Part shown: positions 451-10,140 of the stretch, one piece after another
How positions within the stretch are numbered: the first letter of the stretch is position 1
Layout: each line of letters starts with the position of its first letter
Source: Campylobacterota bacterium
GTDB taxonomy: Bacteria; Campylobacterota; Campylobacteria; Campylobacterales; Sulfurimonadaceae
DNA length: 16,577 nucleotides
Assembly: GCA_034717975.1 (NCBI GenBank)
Contig: JAYEMF010000061.1
Coordinates: 1 to 16,577 of the forward strand
Direction: 5' to 3'
The notes under the pieces: generated by a model
Databases searched by the model: none
The model's input: the letters and a program-made list of their open reading frames with translations, nothing else
Told to the model about the DNA's origin: nothing
Position numbers and translations under genes: made by a program

Positions 451-1779
451 GTGAATAAAATTACCACCAAAGTGAAACTGATCGGCGGGATCCTCTCGTT
501 GATGATCGCTGCCATTGTCGTCATCACCGTCATTATCAACCAAAACTCCTCACATGACTCTATCGTTATCAATGTGGCGGGAAAACAGCGTATGCTGACA
601 CAAAAGATCACAAAAGAGGTGATGTGGCTGCAAAACCGCGGCTCGGTTGACTTCACCAACCTTGATGCGGCCATCAGTGAATTTGACAACTCCCTCAATG
701 ACCTGATGGAGGGTAATGACGCACGCGGTATCTATGCCCCGCCGAAGGCATGTATCAAAGCCAGGCTGGGACAGGTCCGGGCATTATGGTTACCATTCCA
801 CGATCATCTGGACAGCTTCAAACTCCTGCTCTCACAGACCAAAACACTTAAAGCGACAATGTCTGAATCGACCGAAGCTATCTTGAATATCTCCGATCGT
901 GTAGTCAAGCAGATGGTCAAAGAAGGTATGGGAGGCCGTTACATCGATGATGCAGGCAGACAGCGCATGCTTACCCAAAAACTTGCCTTCCACTCCGCAC
1001 AGTACCTCATAACCGGAAGCGCACAGAGCGTCACCGCATTTTTTAATGCCTATGCTCTTTATGAATCGACACTGAAACATTTTCTAAGTGATGCCAGAGT
1101 GCAGAAACAGGTAGAACTTTTTAAAATACTTGAGAAAAACGAGCAGATCTGGTTTGACTATGCCAACTACATCATTGACCTGATGGATAAACAAAAAGAG
1201 CTCAATGAAACATTGGCATATCTCACCGAAATCAATATTGTTTTGCTGAACACTATGGATGAAACGGTAGAATCCTACAGTACCTACTCCGAAGATCAGC
1301 GCCAGTTTCTGCAGTATTTTCAATATATCGCCAGCTTCTTTGCCGTTATATTTATGATCTTTGCTGCGCGTCTTACAAAAAATATTGAACAGAATTTCGA
1401 GCATTTTCTACAGCACTCTGAAGCGATGGCAAGCTCGTTCAGCGATGAGGGCACCTCCGATATCGCTAAAAACAGAGAGAACGATGAACTGGCACTGGCA
1501 TCAATGCATATGAGCCAGTTTATGCAGCAGATGAATACCGTCATCGAGCATGCACAGCAGGCCATTCATGAATCAGAACAGGCAGCGCAGGAGCTGGCGG
1601 CCATATCGGACTCCATGGATGATGAGCTTGCGCTTGATGAAGATTCAAAAGAGCGCATCGACAACAGTGAAGATATCGTTATCCAGACCCTCGACGAGCT
1701 GAGCAATACCTCACAACTTCTTACCAAACTGCAGCAAAATCTTAGCAGTGTGATGACAAAAACACAAAATCATGACTAA
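451..1779 (+). CDS. Membrane-anchored putative nitrate/nitrite sensor: TM - tandem NarX-like/PilJ N-terminal sensor domains - TM - degenerate HAMP - short coiled-coil tail, no catalytic output domain
   Basis: GTG start with SD AAGGAG at 439-444. TM1 about aa 10-30, TM2 about aa 286-307. Two P-box-like motifs: INVAGKQRMLTQK (aa 40-52) and IDDAGRQRMLTQK (aa 165-177). HAMP-like NDELALASMHMSQFMQQM. No H-box/HATPase and no MCP LLALNAAIEAARAG hairpin. Confidence 0.8.
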   Translation: MNKITTKVKLIGGILSLMIAAIVVITVIINQNSSHDSIVINVAGKQRMLTQKITKEVMWLQNRGSVDFTNLDAAISEFDNSLNDLMEGNDARGIYAPPKACIKARLGQVRALWLPFHDHLDSFKLLLSQTKTLKATMSESTEAILNISDRVVKQMVKEGMGGRYIDDAGRQRMLTQKLAFHSAQYLITGSAQSVTAFFNAYALYESTLKHFLSDARVQKQVELFKILEKNEQIWFDYANYIIDLMDKQKELNETLAYLTEINIVLLNTMDETVESYSTYSEDQRQFLQYFQYIASFFAVIFMIFAARLTKNIEQNFEHFLQHSEAMASSFSDEGTSDIAKNRENDELALASMHMSQFMQQMNTVIEHAQQAIHESEQAAQELAAISDSMDDELALDEDSKERIDNSEDIVIQTLDELSNTSQLLTKLQQNLSSVMTKTQNHD

Positions 1780-1852: not shown

Positions 1853-1866
1853 TTGACCTATGTCAA
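1853..1866. promoter_or_regulatory. Fnr/Dnr/Nss-type binding site TTGAC-CTAT-GTCAA upstream of napA
   Basis: Perfect TTGAC-N4-GTCAA palindrome, 21 nt upstream of TACAAT (centre about -40.5 if +1 is near 1900). 13/14 identical to the box at 9547-9560. Confidence 0.88.
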
Positions 1867-1893: not shown

Positions 1894-1968
1894 GTGTCGT
1901 TACCTATAGAATCAGAGTGCTGATCATCTTTAATGATAAGGTGTTCTGTTCAATTTAAGGAGGGACAA

Positions 1969-4806
1969 ATGAGCAAAATGATGGATAGAAGAAGTTTTCT
2001 TAAGAGTGCTGCGGCTGCTTCAGCTGCAAGTGCGATTGGAATGACTATTCCGACGGATGCACAGGCTGCATCGGATGCGGCACAAAGCGACTGGCGCTGG
2101 GATAAGGCGGCCTGTCGTTTCTGTGGTACCGGTTGTGGGATCATGATGGCGACCAAAGAGGGTCGTGTTGTTGCGGTCAAGGGGGACCCGGCAGCTCCAG
2201 TAAATCGTGGTCTGAACTGTATCAAGGGTTACTTCAACGCGAAGATCATGTATGGTGCTGACCGTTTGACGAAACCTTTGCTGCGTGTTAATTCAAAAGG
2301 CGAATTTGATAAAAAAGGTAAATTTGCCGAAGTAAGCTGGGAACGTGCTTTTGACGAGATGGAACATCACGCCAAAAAAGCGCTTAAAGCAAGCGGACCG
2401 GAAGGTGTCGCAGTATTCGCTTCCGGACAGTACACTGTTATGGAAGGTGTTGCTGCACAAAAAATGATGAAAGCCGGATTCCGTTCAAATGCGATCGATC
2501 CGAATGCACGTCACTGTATGGCATCAGCGGTTGTTGGTTTCTACCAGACTTTCGGTATCGATGAGCCGTCTGGCTGTTATGATGATATCGAGCTGACAGA
2601 TACGATTGTATCTTGGGGTTCAAACATGGCAGAGATGCACCCGATCCTCTGGTCTCGTGTAACTGACCGTAAACTGACTGATCCTGATCGCGTTAAAGTG
2701 GTCAATATGTCAACTTACCGCCACAGAACATCAGATTTGGCCGATATCGAGATCATCTTCTCGCCAAATACCGACCTTGCAATCTGGAACTACATTGCAC
2801 GTGAGATCGTTTACAATCACCCTGAAGCAATTGACTGGGATTTCGTCAAGAAACACATCGTGTTTGCAGCGTCTCCGGTAAATATGGGTTACGGTATGCG
2901 TCGTGCAGGTGAGAAGTCACTGAAAGACGGTAAGTATACTGCTCTTGAAATGGAAACTATCTCTAAAGAGATGAGTAAAGTCGTTTCTGAAAAAGAGGCA
3001 CCTGCTCTTGAGCCTTACGGTTACAAAGCCGGTGACAACATGGAGATGAAACCTGCCGGTCTTAAACACTGGGAGATCTCATTCGAAGAGTATAAAAAAT
3101 TCCTTGCTCCATATACACTTGATTATGTGGCAAACATTGCCAAAGGTGATCCAAACGAGAGCGTTGAAAGCTATGCGGCCAAACTGCAGGCACTTGCAGA
3201 CCTATATATCGAAAAAGGGCGTAAAGTCGTCTCTTTCTGGACAATGGGTATGAATCAGCATACACGTGGTACCTGGGTAAATACACTCTCTTACAACGTT
3301 CACTTCCTGCTTAACAAACAAGCTAAGCCGGGTGATGGTGCATTCTCACTGACTGGTCAGCCTTCAGCTTGTGGTACAGCTCGTGAAGTTGGTACATTCT
3401 GTCACAGACTTCCAGCCGATATGATGGTTAAAAGTCCTAAACACAGAAAAATCTGTGAAACTGCATGGAAAATCCCGGACGGTACACTAAACCCTGTCGG
3501 AAACCAGCACATCATGAAGATCCACCGCGATATTGAAGATGGTGTTGTTAAATTTGCATGGGTCAACGTATGTAACCCATACCAAGATACTGCATCAGCA
3601 AGTCACTGGATCAAAGCGGCACGTGAGATGGATAACTTCATCGTATGTTCAGACGGTTACCCCGGTATCTCTGCAAAAGTTTCTGACCTGATCCTTCCGA
3701 CAGCGATGATCTATGAAAAATGGGGTGCTTACGGTAATGCCGAGCGTCGTACACAGCACTGGAGACAACAGGTCCTTCCGGTAGGTGATTCGATGTCTGA
3801 CACATGGCAGTGGGTTGAGTTCTCAAAACGCTTTACTGTTAAAGATCTTTGGGGTGCACAACCACTAAGAGGTAAAAACAAAGACGGTTCACCAAAAGGA
3901 CTTCCGGATGTAATTGCCAAAGCGAAAGCGATGGGCTACAGTGAAAATGACACAATGTTTGACATCCTGTTTAACAATGAGTACTACCGCTCGTTCAAAA
4001 TCGACATGAATGATCCAGTTCAAAAAGGTTATGACAACTCTGAGTGTAACGGCGATAGCCGTAACGTTGTCGGATCTGACGGTAAAGTGTGGAAAGGGTA
4101 TGGTTTCTTTATCCATAAAGCACTGTTTGAAGAGTATGCTAACTTTGGACGCGGTCATGCACATGACCTGGCACCATTTGATGTCTACCATAAAGTACGT
4201 GGTCTTAAATGGCCTGTTGTCGATGGTAAAGAGACTCAATGGCGTTTCAATGTCAAGTACGATCCATATGCAGCCAAAGCCAATGCCAAAGCGGGTACAG
4301 ATAACTCTCACGCCTTCTACGGAACACTGGCTAAAGCTCTGACTCAGGGTGACCTGATGGGTATTAAAGATAAAAAGAAAAAATCACTGGCAAATAAAGC
4401 GAAGATCTTTGCACGTCCGTATATGGATCCTCCAGAAATGCCAGATAACACATGGGATCTATGGCTTTGTACCGGCCGTGTACTTGAACACTGGCACTCT
4501 GGAACAATGACAATGCGTGTACCTGAACTTTACCGTGCGGTACCGGAAGCACTCTGTTATATGCACCCTGCCGATGCGAAAAAACGTGGCGTTAAACGTG
4601 GTGAACTGGTTAATGTTGAATCACGTCGCGGAAGCGTTAAAGCACGTGTCGAGACTCGTGGACGTAACAGACCACCTGAAGGTCTATGTTTCGTACCTTG
4701 GTTCGATGAAAAAGTATTTATCAATAAAGTCTGTCTTGATGCGACATGTCCGCAATCTAAACAGACCGACTTTAAAAAATGTGCCGTAAAAGTCACGAAG
4801 GCGTAA
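1969..4806 (+). CDS. napA: Periplasmic nitrate reductase catalytic subunit NapA (Mo-bisMGD, [4Fe-4S]), epsilon-type large form
   Basis: Tat signal [15 protein letters not shown]...C cluster motif, NARHCMASA Mo ligand, [26 protein letters not shown] and DFKKCAVK. Start moved from 1933 to ATG 1969, which follows SD AAGGAGG at 1957-1963. Confidence 0.98.
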
Positions 4807-4833
4807 TCCTTCAGTGCCATAGCGGTCAGTGTA

Positions 4834-4858
4834 GGTAGATGGGCTTAGCTCATTTACC
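4834..4858 (+). other. Intra-operon RNA stem-loop between napA and napG
   Basis: GGTAGATGGGC-TTA-GCTCATTTACC forms an 11-bp stem with two G-U pairs and has no classical U-tract. Confidence 0.6.
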
Positions 4859-4880
4859 GTTATAAATAAAAAGTGTAACA

Positions 4881-5681
4881 GTGAAAAAAGAACCTCTAAG
4901 CGATCGTCGCAAATTTATCCTCACCATGGCACGGGGCGTTGGCCTTAGTGCGATGGGTGCTCTTGTATGGAGTGCTTATGTCGATGAAGTTAAAGCGGCG
5001 CCGCTTATTTTACGTCCTCCAGGTGCACTTGCCGAAGAGGATTTTTTAAAAACATGTATCAAATGTGGCTTGTGTGTGGAGGCGTGTCCTTACGATACGC
5101 TCCTGCTCGCCAAGCCGGGAGATAACAATCCTATCGGTACGCCATTTTTCATTCCAAAAGATATCCCGTGCTATATGTGCGACGATATTCCTTGTGTTCC
5201 GGTCTGTCCGACCGGCGCACTGGACACGGCATCGGTACAGTCAGAAATTGACGGCGAGATGACGTGGGATATCATGAAGATGGATATGGGCGTAGCCATT
5301 GTCGACGTCAAATCATGCATCGCGTTCTGGGGAATCCAGTGCGATGCGTGTTATCGCGCCTGTCCACTAATGGATGAAGCGATTTATCTTGATTATGACA
5401 AAAATGAACGGACCGGGAAGCACGCTTTTTTGAAGCCTGTTGTCAATCCTGACATCTGTACAGGCTGCGGCCTGTGCGAACGAGCCTGTGTGACGGAAAA
5501 ACCGGCAATTTTAGTACTGCCGAATGAAGTTGCACTCGGTAAAGCGGGTGACCACTATATCAAAGGCTGGGACAAAGCTGATGAAGAACGTCTCGAAGGT
5601 GCTAAAGCTGAGACGACAACGACTGAGCTAAGTAAAGAGAGCGCAATGGATTCGCTTAACGATATGGGAGATCTGTACTGA
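4881..5681 (+). CDS. napG: Ferredoxin-type protein NapG (quinol dehydrogenase periplasmic subunit)
   Basis: Tat motif DRRKFIL, LRPPGA, CIKCGLCVEACP, CYMCDDIPCVPVCP, CDACYRACP and CTGCGLCERAC. GTG start. Confidence 0.96.
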   Translation: MKKEPLSDRRKFILTMARGVGLSAMGALVWSAYVDEVKAAPLILRPPGALAEEDFLKTCIKCGLCVEACPYDTLLLAKPGDNNPIGTPFFIPKDIPCYMCDDIPCVPVCPTGALDTASVQSEIDGEMTWDIMKMDMGVAIVDVKSCIAFWGIQCDACYRACPLMDEAIYLDYDKNERTGKHAFLKPVVNPDICTGCGLCERACVTEKPAILVLPNEVALGKAGDHYIKGWDKADEERLEGAKAETTTTELSKESAMDSLNDMGDLY

Positions 5682-6499
5682 TGAAAAAGATACGTTATTT
5701 ACTGATGCGTCGATTTGTTCAGATCGGATTGATGGTACTTTATTTTGGTGCCAATGCCTACGGATGGAAGATCCTGCAGGGGAACCTAAGCGGTTCACTG
5801 CTGTTTGAGACTGTTCCGCTGGCAGACCCGTATGCGTTGATTCAGATGCTGTTTGCCGGAGCTGTTCTGGCAACCGACATCATTATCGGTGGAGTGATCA
5901 TCGCTGTTATCTATATGATTGTCGGTGGTCGTGCTTTTTGTAGCTGGGTCTGCCCAATCAATATGGTTACAGACCTGGCTAACTGGCTACGCCGTAAGAT
6001 CGGTGTCTCTCAGGTTCAAAAACGCGTCTATATGAGTCGCAACATCCGTTTCTGGATGCTCGGCTTAAGCCTTATCCTCTCAGTAGTGATGGGTGTGGCG
6101 GCGTTTGAACTGATCAGCCCGATCTCCATGGTGCACCGTGGTCTTGTCTTTGGCATGGGTCTTGGTATCGGAGCGATTGTTGTTATCTTCTTGTTTGATC
6201 TGTTTGTACATGAAAACGGATGGTGCGGGCATATCTGTCCACTTGGCGGATTTTACTCCATTTTGGGGAAAATCTCGCTAATCAGGGTTCGCCACGATGC
6301 GGACGCCTGTACTGCCTGTATGAAATGTAAAGAGGTTTGTCCGGAAAAAGAGGTGCTGCATATGGTAGCAAAGAGCAGTGAGAGTGTGTTAATGGGGCAG
6401 TGTACCAACTGCGCACGCTGTATTGAAGTGTGTGACGATGATGCACTGAACTTCTCACTGCGAAGTCTTGTTAAAAAAGAAAAGAAGGGGAACGCATGA
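5681..6499 (+). CDS. napH: Quinol dehydrogenase membrane subunit NapH
   Basis: RRFVQ, several TMs, GRAFCSWVCP, GWCGHICPLG and two C-terminal CxxCxxCxxxC motifs. TGATG overlap with napG. Confidence 0.96.
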   Translation: MKKIRYLLMRRFVQIGLMVLYFGANAYGWKILQGNLSGSLLFETVPLADPYALIQMLFAGAVLATDIIIGGVIIAVIYMIVGGRAFCSWVCPINMVTDLANWLRRKIGVSQVQKRVYMSRNIRFWMLGLSLILSVVMGVAAFELISPISMVHRGLVFGMGLGIGAIVVIFLFDLFVHENGWCGHICPLGGFYSILGKISLIRVRHDADACTACMKCKEVCPEKEVLHMVAKSSESVLMGQCTNCARCIEVCDDDALNFSLRSLVKKEKKGNA

Positions 6500-7122
6500 A
6501 AATGAAAATTGTTCTAGGCGCTATTACAGCTGCGATGCTGATGGTCGGTTGTACTGATTCGGCTGCGCCAGCTGCGCAAGCTGAAGTAAAACCAACAATT
6601 ACAGAAGAGTCTTTGGGTCTGCGTAAAACAGATCTTTATTCAGAAAATACAACCGTAGCTGCGAAGACAACGTACGGAACGGCTGCTGCAGGCGGCTCGG
6701 CAAAATTTGAGCGTGCATTTGACAATGCACCACCGATGATCCCGCACGATACGGAAGGGATGTTGCCAATCACTATGAATGACAACCAGTGTACCGGATG
6801 TCATATGCCGGAAGTAGCACCATCTATGGGGGCAACGCCGATTCCGGCATCGCACTTTGCAAGTTTCAGACCGGTTACGGAGATCGGTGCCGATGATAGA
6901 ATGGTAAAAGATGGAGCATCTGTAGACAATACAAGTGACAAACTGACATCACTGCATACAATGGATACGATGAATCACGCGCGTTACAACTGTTCACAGT
7001 GTCACGCACCACAGTCAACCGGTGATCTGCTGGTTGAAAATAACTTCCGCCCTGACTTTCAGAGCGAAAGCATGAAAAGCGGTTCTAGCCTGCTTGATAC
7101 CCTGAATACAGGTGTAAAATAG
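6496..7122 (+). CDS. napB: Diheme cytochrome c subunit NapB
   Basis: NAPPMIPH, CTGCH and CSQCH heme motifs, SHF. N-terminal signal ends in MVGC. ATGA overlap with napH. Confidence 0.96.
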   Translation: MKMKIVLGAITAAMLMVGCTDSAAPAAQAEVKPTITEESLGLRKTDLYSENTTVAAKTTYGTAAAGGSAKFERAFDNAPPMIPHDTEGMLPITMNDNQCTGCHMPEVAPSMGATPIPASHFASFRPVTEIGADDRMVKDGASVDNTSDKLTSLHTMDTMNHARYNCSQCHAPQSTGDLLVENNFRPDFQSESMKSGSSLLDTLNTGVK

Positions 7123-7602
7123 TTGGCAGACCTAAGCCGACGCGGTTTTTTTGGTGCCATTGGCGCCAAAGCCGTCAGTAAGGAGATCAAAATACGACCT
7201 CCTTACGCCAAAGAGAGTACTCTTTTTGGCACAGAGTGTCCCCAGTGTACTGGAGTTTGCGGCACTGTGTGCGAAGAAGAGATCATCAAGTTTGGTACAG
7301 ACAAGATTCCGTATCTCGATTTTTCAAAGAGTGGTTGTACCTACTGTGAAGAGTGTCTGAGTGCATGCGAACCGGGAGTCCTCAGTGATCCCGAGATAAA
7401 GGTACAGGCTTCCATCCGTATTAATCCAGCCAAATGTATGAGCTGGGAAGAGGTGATGTGTTTCTCCTGTAAAGAGCCGTGCCTGGATAATGCGATCATC
7501 TTCAGCGGGCTCTTCAAGCCAGAGATCAATAATGAGCTATGCACCTCATGTGGTTTCTGCCTTGGCCGTTGTCCAAGCAATGCCATAGAGATAGTGGCTT
7601 AA
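7123..7602 (+). CDS. napF: Ferredoxin-type protein NapF
   Basis: TTG start directly after the napB TAG. SRRGFF, IRPPY and four Cys clusters. Confidence 0.93.
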   Translation: MADLSRRGFFGAIGAKAVSKEIKIRPPYAKESTLFGTECPQCTGVCGTVCEEEIIKFGTDKIPYLDFSKSGCTYCEECLSACEPGVLSDPEIKVQASIRINPAKCMSWEEVMCFSCKEPCLDNAIIFSGLFKPEINNELCTSCGFCLGRCPSNAIEIVA

Positions 7603-7624
7603 AACAGAAAAGAGAGTAAGTAAT

Positions 7625-8587
7625 ATGTTAAAACCTATCTTTGCGCTTCTCATGCTATTGGCCATCACCACTTGTGCCAAAGAGATCAAGCCGGTTTATG
7701 AACTGAAGACAAGCGGGTTTGTTACCGATATAATCATTGATGAGGGCAAACTGTATGCCTCAACCTTTAGCGGTGCCGTCGATATTTTTGATATTAAAAG
7801 CAAAAAAAAGAGTGCTGATATCAAACTGCCCAATATTACCGACTTTATAGGAGATGTCGTTCCTCCAAAAGTCTACTCTGTCGATCGTCTGGCCAATAAG
7901 ACAATGATGGTCTCCGAAGGAAAATCGGGCTACCGCAACGTCTTTTTACATGACGGTAAAACGCTTACCCTGCTAAGTGAGTCAAAGTTTTTCATTAAAA
8001 AAGGACTTTTTGTCGATGAAGATCACATACTTCTGGGTCTTCTTAGCTCTGAACTCATACTTTTCAAGATCAGCACCAAAGAGGTGATCTACCGGCATCC
8101 TATTCTGGAACGTCGCAGCGGCGGTTCAGCTTTTAGCGATATGGTCCTGAGTGAAGATAGAAAAACGGTCGCGACTGCAGACGAGAGCGGTGAAATCCAT
8201 CTCTTCAATGTGGAGGATTTCAAACATCTAAAACTCTATGTTGGCCAAAACCTCGATAACATCTACAAGATCGACTATAAAAAAGGGATGATTATTACTG
8301 CCGGGCAGGATAGACGCTGTGCCATCTATAAACCTGATGGCAGAGCCTATTATGTCAATGGTGAATTTCTGATCTATGCTGCCGCGCTAAGCCCGTCGAG
8401 CAAGACAGGTGTCTTTGCCTCGACTGTGGAAAACGATCTTCAGCTTTTCAACACGGTTACAAAAAGCAAGACCCATCTTCTTAAAGGGCATGGTGCTACA
8501 CTTACAGACTTTGCCTTTTTGAGTGAGACCCAGTTCTTCTCATCGGCAGAAGAGAAGCGTATCCTATTTTGGGATATCACAAAGTAA
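7625..8587 (+). CDS. napL: NapL, WD40-like beta-propeller accessory protein
   Basis: Signal peptide, WD40-like repeats (LKGHGATLTDFAF...RILFWD), and position between napF and napD as in the epsilon napAGHBFLD operon. Confidence 0.88.
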   Translation: MLKPIFALLMLLAITTCAKEIKPVYELKTSGFVTDIIIDEGKLYASTFSGAVDIFDIKSKKKSADIKLPNITDFIGDVVPPKVYSVDRLANKTMMVSEGKSGYRNVFLHDGKTLTLLSESKFFIKKGLFVDEDHILLGLLSSELILFKISTKEVIYRHPILERRSGGSAFSDMVLSEDRKTVATADESGEIHLFNVEDFKHLKLYVGQNLDNIYKIDYKKGMIITAGQDRRCAIYKPDGRAYYVNGEFLIYAAALSPSSKTGVFASTVENDLQLFNTVTKSKTHLLKGHGATLTDFAFLSETQFFSSAEEKRILFWDITK

Positions 8588-8614
8588 ATTTTAAATTAAT
8601 CAGGAGAGTAACAT

Positions 8615-8965
8615 ATGAATGTATCAAGTATTGTCGTACAAACTACACCAAAGTTTATTGACGAAGTTGTGGAAGCACTGAAAAATCTGGATATATGTGA
8701 CTACCACTTTCACGATGAGATGGGACGCATAATTGTTACCATCGAGGGTTCAGGTGTGGAAGAGGAGATCAAGAAACTGACAGTCATCCAGGAGATGCCT
8801 CATATTGTTGCAGCCGATATGCATTTTGCCTATACGGAAGATGAACTTGATGCCGAACGTGACAAGCTTGAAAAAGAGGGGACTGCTCTTCCTGAATGGC
8901 TCAACAAGGAAGATGTCAATGTTAGAGACATCCAATATCACGGTGATCTCAAAAAGAAATTCTAA
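8615..8965 (+). CDS. napD: NapD Tat-proofreading chaperone
   Basis: MNVSSIVV...GRIIVTIEG signature, SD AGGAG, and operon position. Confidence 0.95.
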   Translation: MNVSSIVVQTTPKFIDEVVEALKNLDICDYHFHDEMGRIIVTIEGSGVEEEIKKLTVIQEMPHIVAADMHFAYTEDELDAERDKLEKEGTALPEWLNKEDVNVRDIQYHGDLKKKF

Positions 8966-8975
8966 GGAGCTATCC

Positions 8976-9503
8976 ATGGAAACCTCATTTGCTATATTTC
9001 AGGAGACAGAAGTACCTGAAAATGAGCTCATCATCTCACGTACTGATCTCTCTGGTATCATCACCTATGTCAATGATACCTTTGCAGAGATTTCAGGCTA
9101 CGATAACGATGAACTGATCGGCCAATCACACAACATTTTACGTCATCCCGATATGCCGCACAGTGTCTTCAAAACATTGTGGGATACCATCGAAGCTGGA
9201 AACAGCTGGGAAGGCTACGTCAAAAACCGACGCAAAGACAACGGCTACTACTGGGTCTATGCAAACATCAGCGGTGTCTATAAAGACGGGAAGCTGGTCG
9301 AGTATAAATCCCTGCGTTCATTTGTACCAAAAGCAAAACGTGACGAGGTCCAAAAAGTCTATGATGAACTGCGCCAAAATGAAGGAGACACTGTACGTAC
9401 AGTCACCTACCTTCCTGCCGATCTTTACACATCATTGAAACTCGAAGCCAGCGACAGCGGTCAGTCAATCGACGATCTTGTAATCGCTAAACTAAGTAAA
9501 TAA
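8976..9503 (+). CDS. Aer/CetB-type PAS (probable FAD-binding) protein with a C-terminal ribbon-helix-helix-like segment
   Basis: ATG at 8976 follows SD AAGGAG overlapping the napD stop; the ORF-track start at 8805 overlaps napD and is rejected. IISRTDLSGIITYVNDTFAEISGY...HNILRHPDMP...LWDTI...WEGYVKNRRKDNGYYWV is the Aer PAS signature. Tail: VRTVTYLPADLYTSLKLEASDSGQSIDDLVIAKL. Confidence 0.9.
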   Translation: METSFAIFQETEVPENELIISRTDLSGIITYVNDTFAEISGYDNDELIGQSHNILRHPDMPHSVFKTLWDTIEAGNSWEGYVKNRRKDNGYYWVYANISGVYKDGKLVEYKSLRSFVPKAKRDEVQKVYDELRQNEGDTVRTVTYLPADLYTSLKLEASDSGQSIDDLVIAKLSK

Positions 9504-9520
9504 GGCCCTTTAAGGGTCTT
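9502..9520 (+). terminator. Possible terminator/stem-loop ending the nap-PAS transcript
   Basis: AAGGCCC-TTTAA-GGGTCTT hairpin at the stop codon. The U-tract is weak and displaced. Confidence 0.45.
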
Positions 9521-9546
9521 GTCACTCCTCATTTTTATCTTTCACA

Positions 9547-9560
9547 TTGACCTAAGTCAA
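9547..9560. promoter_or_regulatory. Fnr/Dnr/Nss-type binding site TTGAC-CTAA-GTCAA upstream of the cytochrome c553 gene
   Basis: Perfect TTGAC-N4-GTCAA, 22 nt upstream of TATAAT (centre about -41.5 if +1 is near 9595). Confidence 0.9.
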
Positions 9561-9582
9561 AGGTATTATCCTCATATTAAAC

Positions 9583-9588
9583 TATAAT
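9583..9588 (+). promoter_or_regulatory. sigma70 -10 element (TATAAT) of the cytochrome c553 gene
   Basis: Consensus hexamer at class-II spacing from the Fnr-type box. SD AAGGA at 9605-9609. Confidence 0.75.
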
Positions 9589-9615
9589 CAAACCAACATT
9601 ACAAAAGGAAAATAG

Positions 9616-9909
9616 ATGAAGAAAGTACTTCTCGCAGGTTTAATGGTAGTTGGTATGTCATCGGTAGCATTTGCAGATGGTGCAGCTGCGTATAAAAAAT
9701 GTGCAGGCTGTCACGGTGCAAACGGTGAAAAAGTAGCTCTTGGTAAAAGTAAAGTGATCAAAGATATGTCAAAAGCTGATATTGTTGCTGCTATGAAAGG
9801 CTACAAAGACGGTACTTATGGCGGTCCAATGAAAGGGTTGATGAAAGGTCAAGTTGCTTCAATGAGTGATGCCGATATTCAAGCTATCGCAGATATGATC
9901 GGAAAATAA
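9616..9909 (+). CDS. Periplasmic monoheme cytochrome c553 (class I)
   Basis: Sec signal ending AFA, CAGCH, and distal Met region GGPMKGLMKGQ, typical of epsilon c553. Confidence 0.93.
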   Translation: MKKVLLAGLMVVGMSSVAFADGAAAYKKCAGCHGANGEKVALGKSKVIKDMSKADIVAAMKGYKDGTYGGPMKGLMKGQVASMSDADIQAIADMIGK

Positions 9910-9932
9910 GTAAAAACCGAACACTCTATATT

Positions 9933-9952
9933 TGGCAGTATCCCTGCTGCCA
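9933..9952 (+). terminator. Stem-loop, probable terminator after the c553 gene
   Basis: TGGCAGTA-TCCC-TGCTGCCA 8-bp stem, with pyrimidine-rich TCTCTTTT a few nt downstream. Confidence 0.5.
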
Positions 9953-10140
9953 GAGCTGTCTCTTTTCACTCTAACATAATAATCAGTAACCGCACTACCC
10001 GTTAAATCAAACATTCATCTTGAAAAATAGAGCGTAAAATATAATTGTATTTTTACTTTAAGTCTGCAAGCTTCGATTTTATTTTTAGAATTATCGAATT
10101 GAGATGGGCGAAAGAATAGATTGCGTGAAGTGAAGAGATC

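What the first reader, a model, noticed from the sequence alone, without database searches (positions are those of the whole stretch)
8976..9503. Aer-type PAS fused to a ribbon-helix-helix-like domain: possible new one-component redox regulator at the end of nap
Seen: a complete Aer-like PAS (RHPDMP, conserved W, KNRRKD) with no TM or MCP domain and no cetA-like partner nearby. The last 37 aa (9390-9500) follow the CopG/Arc/MetJ pattern: beta-strand VRTVTYLP, helix ADLYTSLKLEA, turn SG-x-S, helix IDDLVIAKL. The SD overlaps the napD stop, so it is probably the eighth gene of the operon. Known: Aer and CetB PAS domains sense respiratory redox state through FAD for energy taxis. Inference: this domain has been repurposed for transcriptional control, or the RHH acts only as a dimerisation module. 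I do not know of a characterised Aer-PAS-RHH protein.
Basis: partly seen in the sequence, partly recalled or inferred. Interest (0 to 1): 0.8.

Follow-up and report, generated by a model that had tools for sequence, protein, structure and literature searches.

The report
Flavin PAS sensor fused to RHH
A small protein encoded at the end of a nitrate-reductase operon joins an Aer-like redox-sensing domain to a ribbon-helix-helix DNA-binding fold, which suggests an undescribed direct redox-to-transcription switch in sulfur-oxidising bacteria.

Summary
Window 8976-9503 (+) encodes a 175-aa protein. Residues 1-135 are an Aer-type PAS domain (E 1.1e-32 to the solved E. coli Aer PAS; the three flavin-contact residues named for Aer are invariant). 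Residues 136-175 fold as a ribbon-helix-helix (RHH): best structural match is the PutA RHH domain, Z 6.1, rmsd 0.9 A over 37 residues, followed by NikR, Arc, AmrZ and CopG-type proteins. A homodimer model passes its controls (0.71 against 0.00) and shows an antiparallel ribbon centred on V143 with helix B-B' packing.

The gene directly follows napD in 23 of the 34 closest genomic loci, from Campylobacterota and Aquificota. None of the 10 unlinked loci whose neighbours could be read has a chemoreceptor gene beside it. The full tail looks ancestral; two derived clades lost one or both helices but kept the R-x-V-x-Y strand.

Best reading (about 0.5): a flavin redox-sensing one-component regulator with an RHH output. 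DNA binding, flavin binding and the target are untested, and I found no operator. The nap promoter instead carries a conserved Crp/Fnr-type box. Databases label the family only as PAS or aerotaxis protein, and my paper searches found no description. Verdict: a new variant of a known kind, moderately interesting and easy to test.

The parts
8976..9503 (+). PAS-RHH gene (175 aa plus stop), the last gene of the nap cluster
   Evidence: Translation; full-length homologues of 160-195 aa at 59-73% identity; synteny.
8964..8969 (+). Shine-Dalgarno AAGGAG, overlapping the napD stop (TAA 8963-8965), 6 nt before the ATG
   Evidence: Read directly from the sequence.
8976..9329 (+). N-cap and Aer-type PAS core (aa 1-118). 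H52, N84 and R114 align with the flavin-contact residues His53, Asn85 and Arg115 of Aer.
   Evidence: Pfam; PDB 8dik at 1.1e-32; Foldseek 8dik at 2.7e-14; invariant columns; Aer residues from the abstract passage of PMC9668731.
9330..9380 (+). Conserved connecting helix (aa 119-135) between PAS and RHH. K121, R122, M125, Q126, Y129, D130 and R133 are nearly or fully invariant.
   Evidence: Helix 119-135 in the model; column counts; residues 126-127, 130 and 133-134 lie in the modelled dimer interface.
9381..9416 (+). RHH strand region (aa 136-147, strand about 139-147). R141, V143 and Y145 lie on the outward face.
   Evidence: Dimer contacts 143-143', 142-144', 140-146' and 139-147'; L146 touches helix B' residues 170 and 173; conservation.
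9417..9458 (+). RHH helix A (aa 148-161). Position 153 is K or R in 104 of 120 sequences.
9459..9500 (+). G-x-S turn and RHH helix B (aa 162-175, helix 165-173). Position 164 is S or T in 96 of 120 sequences.
   Evidence: B-B' contacts 172-172' and 173-173'.
1933..8965 (+). napAGHBFLD, the operon the gene is attached to
   Evidence: ORFs; NapD and NapL-like Pfam matches; the order matched by tblastn in 23 loci.
1853..1866 (.). Context: Crp/Fnr-type palindrome TTGACCTATGTCAA in the napA promoter region
   Evidence: a similar box lies within 260 bp upstream of napA in 10 of 11 sequences examined.

Best explanation
The gene encodes a soluble, dimeric one-component regulator. An N-terminal Aer-type PAS domain probably carries FAD and reports the redox state of the respiratory chain or cytoplasm. 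A strongly conserved helix (aa 119-135) links it to a C-terminal ribbon-helix-helix domain, whose two-stranded ribbon would read DNA.

The redox state of the flavin would change how the PAS domains and N-caps sit against the helix and ribbon, and so switch DNA binding on or off. Because the gene is the last of napAGHBFLD and is probably translationally coupled to napD, its level follows nap expression. It would then feed the respiratory state back onto transcription, either of nap itself or of other respiratory genes.

Shown here: the PAS type, the RHH fold, a supported dimer model, residue conservation and synteny. Inferred: flavin binding, DNA binding, the target and the sign of regulation.
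For: - PAS type: E 1.1e-32 to the solved Aer PAS and Foldseek 2.7e-14. H52, N84 and R114 are invariant in 120 sequences. In an ungapped alignment they keep the same spacing (32 and 30 residues) as Aer His53, Asn85 and Arg115, which contact the flavin.
- RHH fold, tail-only model: pLDDT 92. VIA-align against 48,161 chains puts the PutA RHH-DNA complex first (Z 6.1, rmsd 0.9, 37 aligned), then TacA, NikR, Arc, AmrZ, CdbA and CopA. Foldseek rows are CdbA, AmrZ, omega, CopG and Arc at TM 0.71-0.86, but with E of 0.43 or worse.
- RHH, sequence level: weak hits all point the same way. RHH_5 scores E 0.0017 on the tail. Of 18 tails, 4 hit RHH_5, 3 RHH_3, 2 RHH_1 and 2 RHH_7. The tail profile hits the PDB RHH proteins SvtR (0.064) and ORF56 (0.08).
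- Dimer: ipSAE 0.71 (runs 0.75, 0.71, 0.70) against a best control of 0.00. The runs agree in at least 100% of contacts and partner pLDDT is 93. This mark was reached by 20 of 30 proteins solved as pairs and 1 of 23 solved as single chains. The interface is 136-151, 154, 166, 169-170 and 172-175, plus 1-8, 58 and 126-134.
- Conserved tail positions are those that contact DNA in known RHH proteins: outward strand residues R141 (120 of 120), V143 (113 of 120) and Y145 (120 of 120), a basic residue in helix A (K/R153, 104 of 120), and the N-cap of helix B (S/T164, 96 of 120). A central valine on the reading face has precedent in AmrZ Val20 and FitA (PMC3325190 passages).
- Deep-branching full-tail members carry other residues at the outward positions, mostly polar or basic (K-S-W, K-N-W, T-T-H; one has F-S-Y), as expected if they read different operators.
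- No MCP partner: none next to the gene in the window or in the 10 unlinked loci whose neighbours could be read. The same genome has three other Aer-type PAS genes directly beside MCP genes.
- The gene also occurs away from nap in genomes that do hold napA, as a trans-acting factor could.
Against: - No DNA-binding or flavin data exist.
- No candidate operator: k-mer counting over 11 napA upstream regions found only the Crp/Fnr-type box. That box, together with the neighbouring crp-like gene, already offers a regulator for nap.
- The tail is slightly acidic: median net charge -2, range -6 to +3, in 119 tails.
- Two derived clades lack one or both RHH helices yet keep R-x-V-x-Y. Within the window's taxonomic family, 19 of 34 orthologue matches end at residues 143-152. 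So the strand has a role that does not need an RHH.
- In the dimer model the N-cap (aa 1-8) and P58 of the flavin loop also lie in the interface. I could not see whether they cover the ribbon's outward face.
- No Pfam RHH model reaches its curated cut-off on the window protein (15.2 to 18.5 bits against 26).
- The dimer pass may partly reflect the model's memory of solved RHH dimers.
Confidence: 0.5

Rival explanations
1. The RHH-like tail is only a dimerisation clasp for a flavin PAS redox sensor. The sensor would signal by protein-protein contact, for example to the neighbouring Crp/Fnr-type regulator, to the output-less PilJ-type nitrate sensor encoded upstream of napA, or to the cytoplasmic Nap maturation proteins NapD and NapF. 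It would not bind DNA.
For: - Clades that lost one or both helices keep the strand R-x-V-x-Y, and the truncated ones remain nap-linked (9 of 9).
- The tail has a net negative charge.
- No operator was found.
- The nap promoter has its own Crp/Fnr-type box.
- The 442-aa PilJ-domain protein has no recognisable output domain and would need a partner.
- NifL, a relative of this PAS type (2gj3), acts through a partner protein (from established knowledge, recalled).
Against: - The full RHH looks ancestral and is kept in 17 of the 34 loci across two phyla.
- The conserved positions include the helix-A basic residue and the helix-B N-cap. A mere clasp would not need these.
- Most solved proteins that match the tail are DNA binders.
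- No specific partner was tested here.
Confidence: 0.3
2. It is a CetB-like energy-taxis sensor that works with a CetA-like chemoreceptor encoded elsewhere. The tail would mediate docking or dimerisation.
For: - The PAS domain is of the Aer/CetB type.
- Some sources name members 'aerotaxis receptor' or 'chemotaxis protein'.
- CetB is a dimeric stand-alone PAS protein (PMC2628428 passages).
- The genome has many chemoreceptor-linked PAS paralogues.
Against: [quoted passage not shown] Here no MCP gene is adjacent in the window, in the 23 nap-linked loci, or in the 10 unlinked loci whose neighbours could be read.
- The same genome already has three PAS+MCP gene pairs whose PAS proteins lack this tail.
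- Conserved placement after napD in two phyla points to respiration rather than motility.
Confidence: 0.12

Closest known systems
E. coli Aer (PAS domain, PDB 8dik)
   Same: Same PAS subtype: E 1.1e-32, 43% identity in the Foldseek alignment. The RHPDMP loop and the flavin-contact His, Asn and Arg are conserved.
   Different: Aer continues into a membrane anchor, HAMP and MCP signalling domain. This protein ends after 175 aa with an RHH.
Campylobacter jejuni CetB/CetC with CetA (bipartite energy taxis)
   Same: A stand-alone Aer-type PAS protein of similar size from the same phylum, likely a dimer (PMC2628428).
   Different: CetB is co-transcribed with the chemoreceptor CetA. Here there is no adjacent MCP, the gene follows napD, and it has an RHH tail. 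I did not align a CetB sequence directly.
PutA (RHH domain joined to a flavoenzyme)
   Same: The PutA RHH domain is the best structural match of the tail (2rbf, Z 6.1). PutA is a flavoprotein whose RHH-mediated repression responds to flavin reduction (recalled).
   Different: In PutA the RHH is N-terminal and the flavin sits in a large proline dehydrogenase. Here a small PAS sensor precedes a C-terminal RHH. No sequence relationship beyond the fold was seen.
NikR and MetJ (ligand-controlled RHH regulators)
   Same: An RHH joined to, or controlled by, a small-molecule-sensing part. NikR chains are among the best matches (2ca9 Z 5.8, 1q5v Z 5.3).
   Different: The sensor domain differs (nickel-binding domain in NikR, SAM as co-repressor in MetJ), as does the domain order. 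None uses a PAS domain.
NifL PAS1 and MmoS (FAD-PAS redox sensors that control transcription indirectly)
   Same: Related FAD-binding PAS domains (2gj3 at 1.8e-13, 3ewk at 6.5e-29) used for redox control of gene expression.
   Different: They act through a partner (NifA) or a kinase, not through a DNA-binding domain in the same chain.
AmrZ and FitA (RHH with valine at the centre of the reading face)
   Same: The basic-x-Val-x-residue pattern on the ribbon. AmrZ Lys18, Val20 and Arg22 contact bases (PMC3325190). AmrZ is among the best structural matches (Z 5.7).
   Different: They have no sensor domain. The third position here is Tyr, not Arg.

Membership tests
PAS domain (Pfam PAS_3 / PAS / PAS_9) | Profile match above the curated cut-off | tested here: met
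   PAS_3 65.4 bits (cut-off 25.6), PAS 52.7 (22.6), PAS_9 45.9 (27).
Aer-type FAD-binding PAS | Close similarity to the solved Aer PAS domain, with the flavin-contact residues His53, Asn85 and Arg115 conserved | tested here: met
   8dik at 1.1e-32. H52, N84 and R114 are invariant in 120 sequences and keep the same spacing as in Aer.
Aer-type FAD-binding PAS | Binds FAD and changes state on reduction | not testable with these tools
   Needs a spectrum of the purified protein.
Ribbon-helix-helix superfamily | Strand-helix-helix fold with a turn before helix B | tested here: met
   Tail model pLDDT 92. Best matches are RHH proteins: Z 6.1 to 5.0 for the first 17 rows, rmsd 0.8-2.2 over 37-40 residues; Foldseek TM 0.71-0.86. 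Z below 8 is middling by the tool's own note, but the matches cover the whole domain and nearly all rows are of one fold.
Ribbon-helix-helix superfamily | Intertwined homodimer with an antiparallel two-stranded ribbon | tested here: met
   Model only: ipSAE 0.71 against a best control of 0.00; contacts 143-143', 142-144', 140-146', 172-172' and 173-173'. The pass may owe something to solved RHH dimers.
Ribbon-helix-helix superfamily | Sequence profile match above a curated Pfam cut-off | tested here: not met
   RHH_5 scores 15.2 bits on the whole protein and 18.5 on the tail, against a cut-off of 26. The tail profile against PDB RHH proteins gives E 0.064-0.61.
Ribbon-helix-helix superfamily | Sequence-specific DNA binding through the ribbon | not testable with these tools
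   No operator was found by k-mer counting. No tool here models protein with DNA.
CetB-type bipartite energy-taxis sensor | Encoded beside, and co-transcribed with, a CetA-like HAMP-MCP gene | tested here: not met
   No MCPsignal in the window ORFs scanned, nor next to the gene in the 23 nap-linked loci or the 10 unlinked loci with readable neighbours. Other PAS paralogues of the same genome do have such neighbours.
nap operon (eighth gene) | Conserved position directly after napD on the same strand | tested here: met
   23 of the 34 best loci are nap-linked, one of them between napL and napD. There is a 10-nt gap with the SD overlapping the napD stop.
nap operon (eighth gene) | Co-transcription with napAGHBFLD | not testable with these tools
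   No RNA run was available to test this.

The most novel reading that the evidence does not exclude
PAS-RHH is an unrecognised class of one-component regulator. In it an Aer-type flavin sensor directly gates a ribbon-helix-helix DNA reader. It travels with the napAGHBFLD module across Campylobacterota and Aquificota. There it supplies the redox or oxygen feedback on nitrate respiration that these bacteria, which lack NarXL/FNR-type control, are not known to have. It would work as a small analogue of the PutA flavin switch.
Probability: 0.4. Interest if true: 0.7.

Novelty: new variant of a known kind. Interest (0 to 1): 0.58.

Why it matters
How Campylobacterota and Aquificota set nitrate respiration against oxygen is poorly understood. 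A 2021 review names only the Crp/Fnr-type Nss regulators for Wolinella and says that how the signals are sensed is unknown (PMC8139620 passages).

This 175-aa protein is a compact, soluble and widespread candidate, conserved next to nap in two phyla. A flavin spectrum and redox-dependent DAP-seq or EMSA could test it in weeks.

If it binds DNA, it adds a new input-output pairing (flavin PAS with RHH) to the one-component systems. It would also give a minimal model for how a PAS signal reaches a beta-ribbon DNA reader. Databases would need to re-label a family now called 'aerotaxis receptor' or 'PAS domain-containing protein'.

Tried and rejected
- The exhaustive representative search with the whole protein was swamped by long multi-PAS proteins and said nothing about the tail.
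- Foldseek with the full-length model returned only PAS and LOV structures, so I folded the tail alone.
- Foldseek on the tail gave no row at E <= 0.001. The rows are RHH proteins but the E-values (0.43 and worse) are weak for a 40-residue query.
- The tail profile against PDB sequences was topped by designed repeat proteins (dTor), which I regard as spurious repeat matches.
- Operator search: 6-, 7- and 8-mer counts over the 260 bp upstream of napA in 11 sequences found only A/T-rich words, the SD, and the core of the Crp/Fnr-type box. This simple count cannot exclude a short degenerate operator.
- RNA evidence for co-transcription: no RNA holder listed. Four DNA runs from one study hold the stretch, two of which may be its source. 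I did not lay reads.
- Earlier findings of this scan, by place and by sequence: nothing returned.
- Literature: 'ribbon-helix-helix' + 'PAS domain' + 'one-component' gave 0 papers. 'ribbon-helix-helix' + 'PAS domain' gave 14 papers, 11 listed. I judged these by title and abstract start only, and none appears to describe a PAS-RHH protein. 'napL' + 'napD' + 'PAS domain' gave 0. 'napAGHBFLD' + 'PAS' gave 6, 5 listed. In the one I opened (PMC12286921, passages), 'PAS' matched only 'passed' and 'past'. The C. jejuni PAS regulator CfiR is a YheO-type PAS with a helix-turn-helix, which is unrelated (PMC4519771 passages).
- The A. butzleri genome paper lists 'redox-sensing PAS domain proteins' under chemotaxis and does not mention a nap-linked one in the passages shown.
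- One paper search failed on a term with a slash.
- Rejected: a toxin-antitoxin antitoxin reading of the RHH. There is no toxin-like neighbour, and the RHH is fused to a PAS domain.
- Rejected: a longer 232-aa ORF from the TTG at 8805. Homologues start at the ATG at 8976.

Full report
**Setting.** The + strand of the window carries, in order:
- the 3' end of a Crp-like regulator gene (2-436; HTH_Crp_2 at 9e-12);
- a 442-aa membrane protein with PilJ-type sensor modules (451-1779);
- napA (1933-4806), napG, napH, napB, napF, napL (7625-8587) and napD (8615-8965; NapD at 2.9e-21);
- the ORF in question (8976-9503);
- a small c-type cytochrome gene (9616-9909).

The minus strand then holds maf, a membrane protein gene, alaS and a PAS-GGDEF-EAL gene.

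**The observation.** The ORF translates cleanly to 175 aa. AAGGAG at 8964-8969 overlaps the napD stop codon and lies 6 nt before the ATG. Homologues begin at the same methionine, so the start is right. RHPDMP (aa 56-61), KNRRKD (aa 83-88) and three invariant tryptophans are present. Only PAS families pass their Pfam cut-offs. The best solved relative is the E. coli Aer PAS domain (8dik, 1.1e-32 over aa 9-129), followed by full-length Aer, MmoS and NifL. The Aer structure paper's abstract names His53, Asn85 and Arg115 as flavin contacts (PMC9668731). In the ungapped alignment these fall on H52, N84 and R114, with identical spacing. All three are invariant in 120 family members.

**The tail is a ribbon-helix-helix.**
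- Sequence evidence is weak but consistent. RHH_5 scores E 0.019 on the whole protein and 0.0017 on the tail, both below the cut-off of 26 bits. Among 18 tails scanned singly, the families hit most often are RHH_5 (4), RHH_3 (3), RHH_1 (2) and RHH_7 (2). A profile of the 18 tails finds the RHH proteins SvtR (0.064), ORF56 (0.08) and AvtR (0.61) in the PDB, behind spurious designed repeats.
- Structure is clearer. The full-length AlphaFold model (pLDDT 90.9, pTM 0.82) shows helix 119-135, an extended stretch 136-147, and helices 148-161 and 165-173.
- The tail folded alone (pLDDT 92) was aligned without Foldseek to 48,161 chains. The best matches are the PutA RHH-operator complex (Z 6.1, rmsd 0.9 A, 37 residues), TacA1, NikR, Arc, AmrZ, CdbA, CopA and NikA, and further RHH proteins fill almost the whole list.
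- Foldseek lists the same kind of proteins at TM 0.71-0.86 but with weak E-values.
- These Z values are middling by the tool's own calibration. However, the matches span the whole 40-residue domain and nearly all rows are of one fold.

**Dimer.** A two-copy prediction with a 120-sequence alignment (118 rows used) scored ipSAE 0.71 (runs 0.75, 0.71, 0.70) against 0.00 for the best of three controls. Contact agreement was at least 100% and partner pLDDT 93. That mark was reached by 20 of 30 proteins solved as pairs and by 1 of 23 solved as single chains.
- The closest contacts are 143-143', 142-144', 140-146', 139-147', 172-172' and 173-173'. Residues 146, 150 and 154 also touch helix B'.
- This describes an antiparallel ribbon with its dyad at V143, capped by crossed B helices, which is the RHH dimer.
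- L146 touches helix B', so the even positions face the core. R141, V143 and Y145 therefore face outward, the side that enters the major groove in RHH proteins.
- Residues 1-8, P58 of the flavin loop, and 126-134 of the connecting helix also lie in the interface. This suggests a physical route from flavin to ribbon. I could not inspect coordinates, so I cannot say whether they cover the outward face.
- The pass may partly reflect solved RHH dimers known to the model.

**Conservation.** In 120 close homologues (59-73% identity), R141 and Y145 never vary. V143 is valine in 113. Position 153 in helix A is K or R in 104. Position 164 at the start of helix B is S or T in 96. The core positions 140, 146, 154, 169, 172 and 173 stay hydrophobic. 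These conserved polar positions are the ones that contact bases and phosphates in characterised RHH proteins. AmrZ reads DNA with Lys18, Val20 and Arg22, and its paper notes a valine at the same place in FitA (PMC3325190). The connecting helix is even more conserved: Q126, Y129 and D130 are invariant, and K121, R122, M125 and R133 nearly so. Against DNA binding, the tails are mildly acidic, with a median net charge of -2.

**Distribution and context.** The word-indexed search found 2736 hits. The best 120 are all 160-195 aa long and cover 86-100% of the query. Named members come from Sulfurimonas, Hydrogenimonas, Nitratiruptor, Nitrosophilus and Persephonella.

In the GTDB genome collection the 34 best loci are all Campylobacterota or Aquificota. 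The remaining 46 kept loci are mostly true Aer-type receptors of about 500-700 aa. Of the 34:
- 23 have the gene at the end of napAGHBFLD, one of them between napL and napD;
- 10 do not;
- 1 starts at a contig edge and cannot be judged.

None of the 10 unlinked loci has an MCP neighbour. Instead I saw pta-ackA-gap, pyruvate kinase, CLC channels, a cytochrome c peroxidase and YtfJ. Three unlinked carriers do have napA on another contig and a single PAS-RHH orthologue. In one of them (L007) the gene has its own TTGAC-N4-GTCAA box ahead of a TATAAT.

The window's own genome has 24 Aer-type PAS matches, but only this one carries the tail. Three paralogues sit directly beside MCP genes. [quoted passage not shown]

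**Three tail forms**:

| Form | Loci | Length | nap-linked |
|---|---|---|---|
| Full strand-helix-helix tail | 17 | 167-189 aa | 13 of 17 |
| Ends zero to four residues after R-x-V/I-x-Y | 9 | 137-145 aa | 9 of 9 |
| Strand plus one short helix | 8 | about 152-162 aa (one cut at the contig edge) | 1 of 8 |

I built a quick maximum-likelihood tree of 33 loci plus the window and two outgroup paralogues. L026 was left out because it is cut at its N-terminus. Only columns at least 70% filled were kept, so the two helices are largely excluded.
- The full form is paraphyletic and includes the deepest branches.
- The truncated form is one clade (SH-aLRT 96).
- The intermediate form is one clade (SH-aLRT 83).

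So PAS-RHH is probably the ancestral architecture, and the helices were lost about twice. In the window's own taxonomic family, 35 of 81 genomes (16 of 23 genera) have an orthologue at E <= 1e-40. Of the 34 other than the window's, 14 alignments reach residue 161 or beyond, 19 end at 143-152, and 1 is cut by a contig end. The deep full-tail members carry K-S-W, K-N-W, T-T-H or F-S-Y at the outward strand positions, as operator-reading residues might vary. The retention of R-x-V-x-Y without the helices is the main argument that the strand also has a role unrelated to DNA.

**Regulation of nap.** The napA upstream region holds an exact palindrome, TTGACCTATGTCAA (1853-1866). A second, TTGACCTAAGTCAA (9547-9560), overlaps the -35 of a promoter-like site ahead of the cytochrome gene. 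A similar box lies within 260 bp of napA in 10 of 11 sequences examined; the eleventh has one further upstream. By recall, this resembles FNR/CRP-type sites. A review reports Crp/Fnr-type NssA, NssB and NssC as activators of nap, nrf and nos in Wolinella (PMC8139620 passages). So the main activator of nap is probably the neighbouring Crp-like protein. PAS-RHH, if it binds DNA, would modulate nap or act elsewhere. I found no second conserved motif.

**Known or new.** Source names for the family are 'PAS domain-containing protein', 'aerotaxis receptor' and 'chemotaxis protein'. NCBIfam has no specific model. ESM Atlas clusters carry only PAS families. The paper searches listed under Tried and rejected found no description of a PAS-RHH protein or of a PAS gene in nap clusters. 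These searches cover only the held open-access library.

**Verdict.** The RHH fold, the dimer model and conservation across two phyla are supported. Regulatory function is a well-founded inference at about even odds. A dimerisation-only role comes second, and a taxis role is a distant third. It is a new variant of a known kind: a one-component regulator built from two known modules in a pairing not described before.

Noticed in passing
window 451-1779 (+): 442-aa membrane protein with two PilJ-type periplasmic modules, each carrying a G[KR]QRMLTQK motif. The best solved relative is 'Chemotaxis transducer' 6gcv (3e-07), then PilJ. It has a roughly 130-residue acidic cytoplasmic tail but no recognisable output domain (no MCPsignal, kinase or GGDEF). 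It sits between the crp-like gene and napA. The same crp plus sensor pair lies next to nap in L021, L027, L033 and L034. It may be an orphan nitrate sensor whose partner is unknown.
   Followed up: partly
window 1853-1866 and 9547-9560; L007 about 5912-5925: Exact TTGAC-N4-GTCAA palindromes lie ahead of napA and ahead of the cytochrome c gene. A similar box lies upstream of napA in 10 of 11 sequences examined, and ahead of the unlinked PAS-RHH gene of L007. This is probably the site of the neighbouring Crp/Fnr-type regulator, and it would place nap, the cytochrome and (in L007) PAS-RHH in one regulon.
   Followed up: partly
own genome: L084, L085, L090: Three Aer-type stand-alone PAS genes lie directly beside MCP genes (MCPsignal with CZB or HAMP_2). 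These are CetAB-like bipartite receptors. None of their PAS proteins has the RHH tail.
   Followed up: partly
window 1933 versus 1969: The napA ORF as listed starts at the ATG at 1933. However, an AAGGAGG precedes the ATG at 1969 ([12 protein letters not shown], the twin-arginine signal), and homologues align from there. The true start is probably 1969.
   Followed up: no
L019 6001-6438: In one Sulfurimonadaceae genome the truncated PAS gene lies between napL and napD rather than after napD.
   Followed up: no
L044, L057, L060, L061; also L049: Other stand-alone Aer-type PAS proteins of about 160-170 aa carry a different, all-helical tail with no RHH strand. They come from Aquificaceae, Dechloromonas, Nautiliaceae and Thalassospiraceae. 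L049 (Campylobacterales) has a divergent RHH-like tail in a genome where napA was not found with my query.
   Followed up: no
L013 2868-3125: A Sulfurospirillum nap cluster has a homologue of the window's small cytochrome c (57% identity) inserted between napH and napB. This links that cytochrome to Nap.
   Followed up: no
window 9504-9518: A short imperfect hairpin (GGCCCTT TAA GGGTC) follows the stop codon, but the scan did not call it a terminator. The only terminator-like site in 8500-10100 is at 9931-9954, after the cytochrome gene. Read-through into the cytochrome gene is therefore possible.
   Followed up: no
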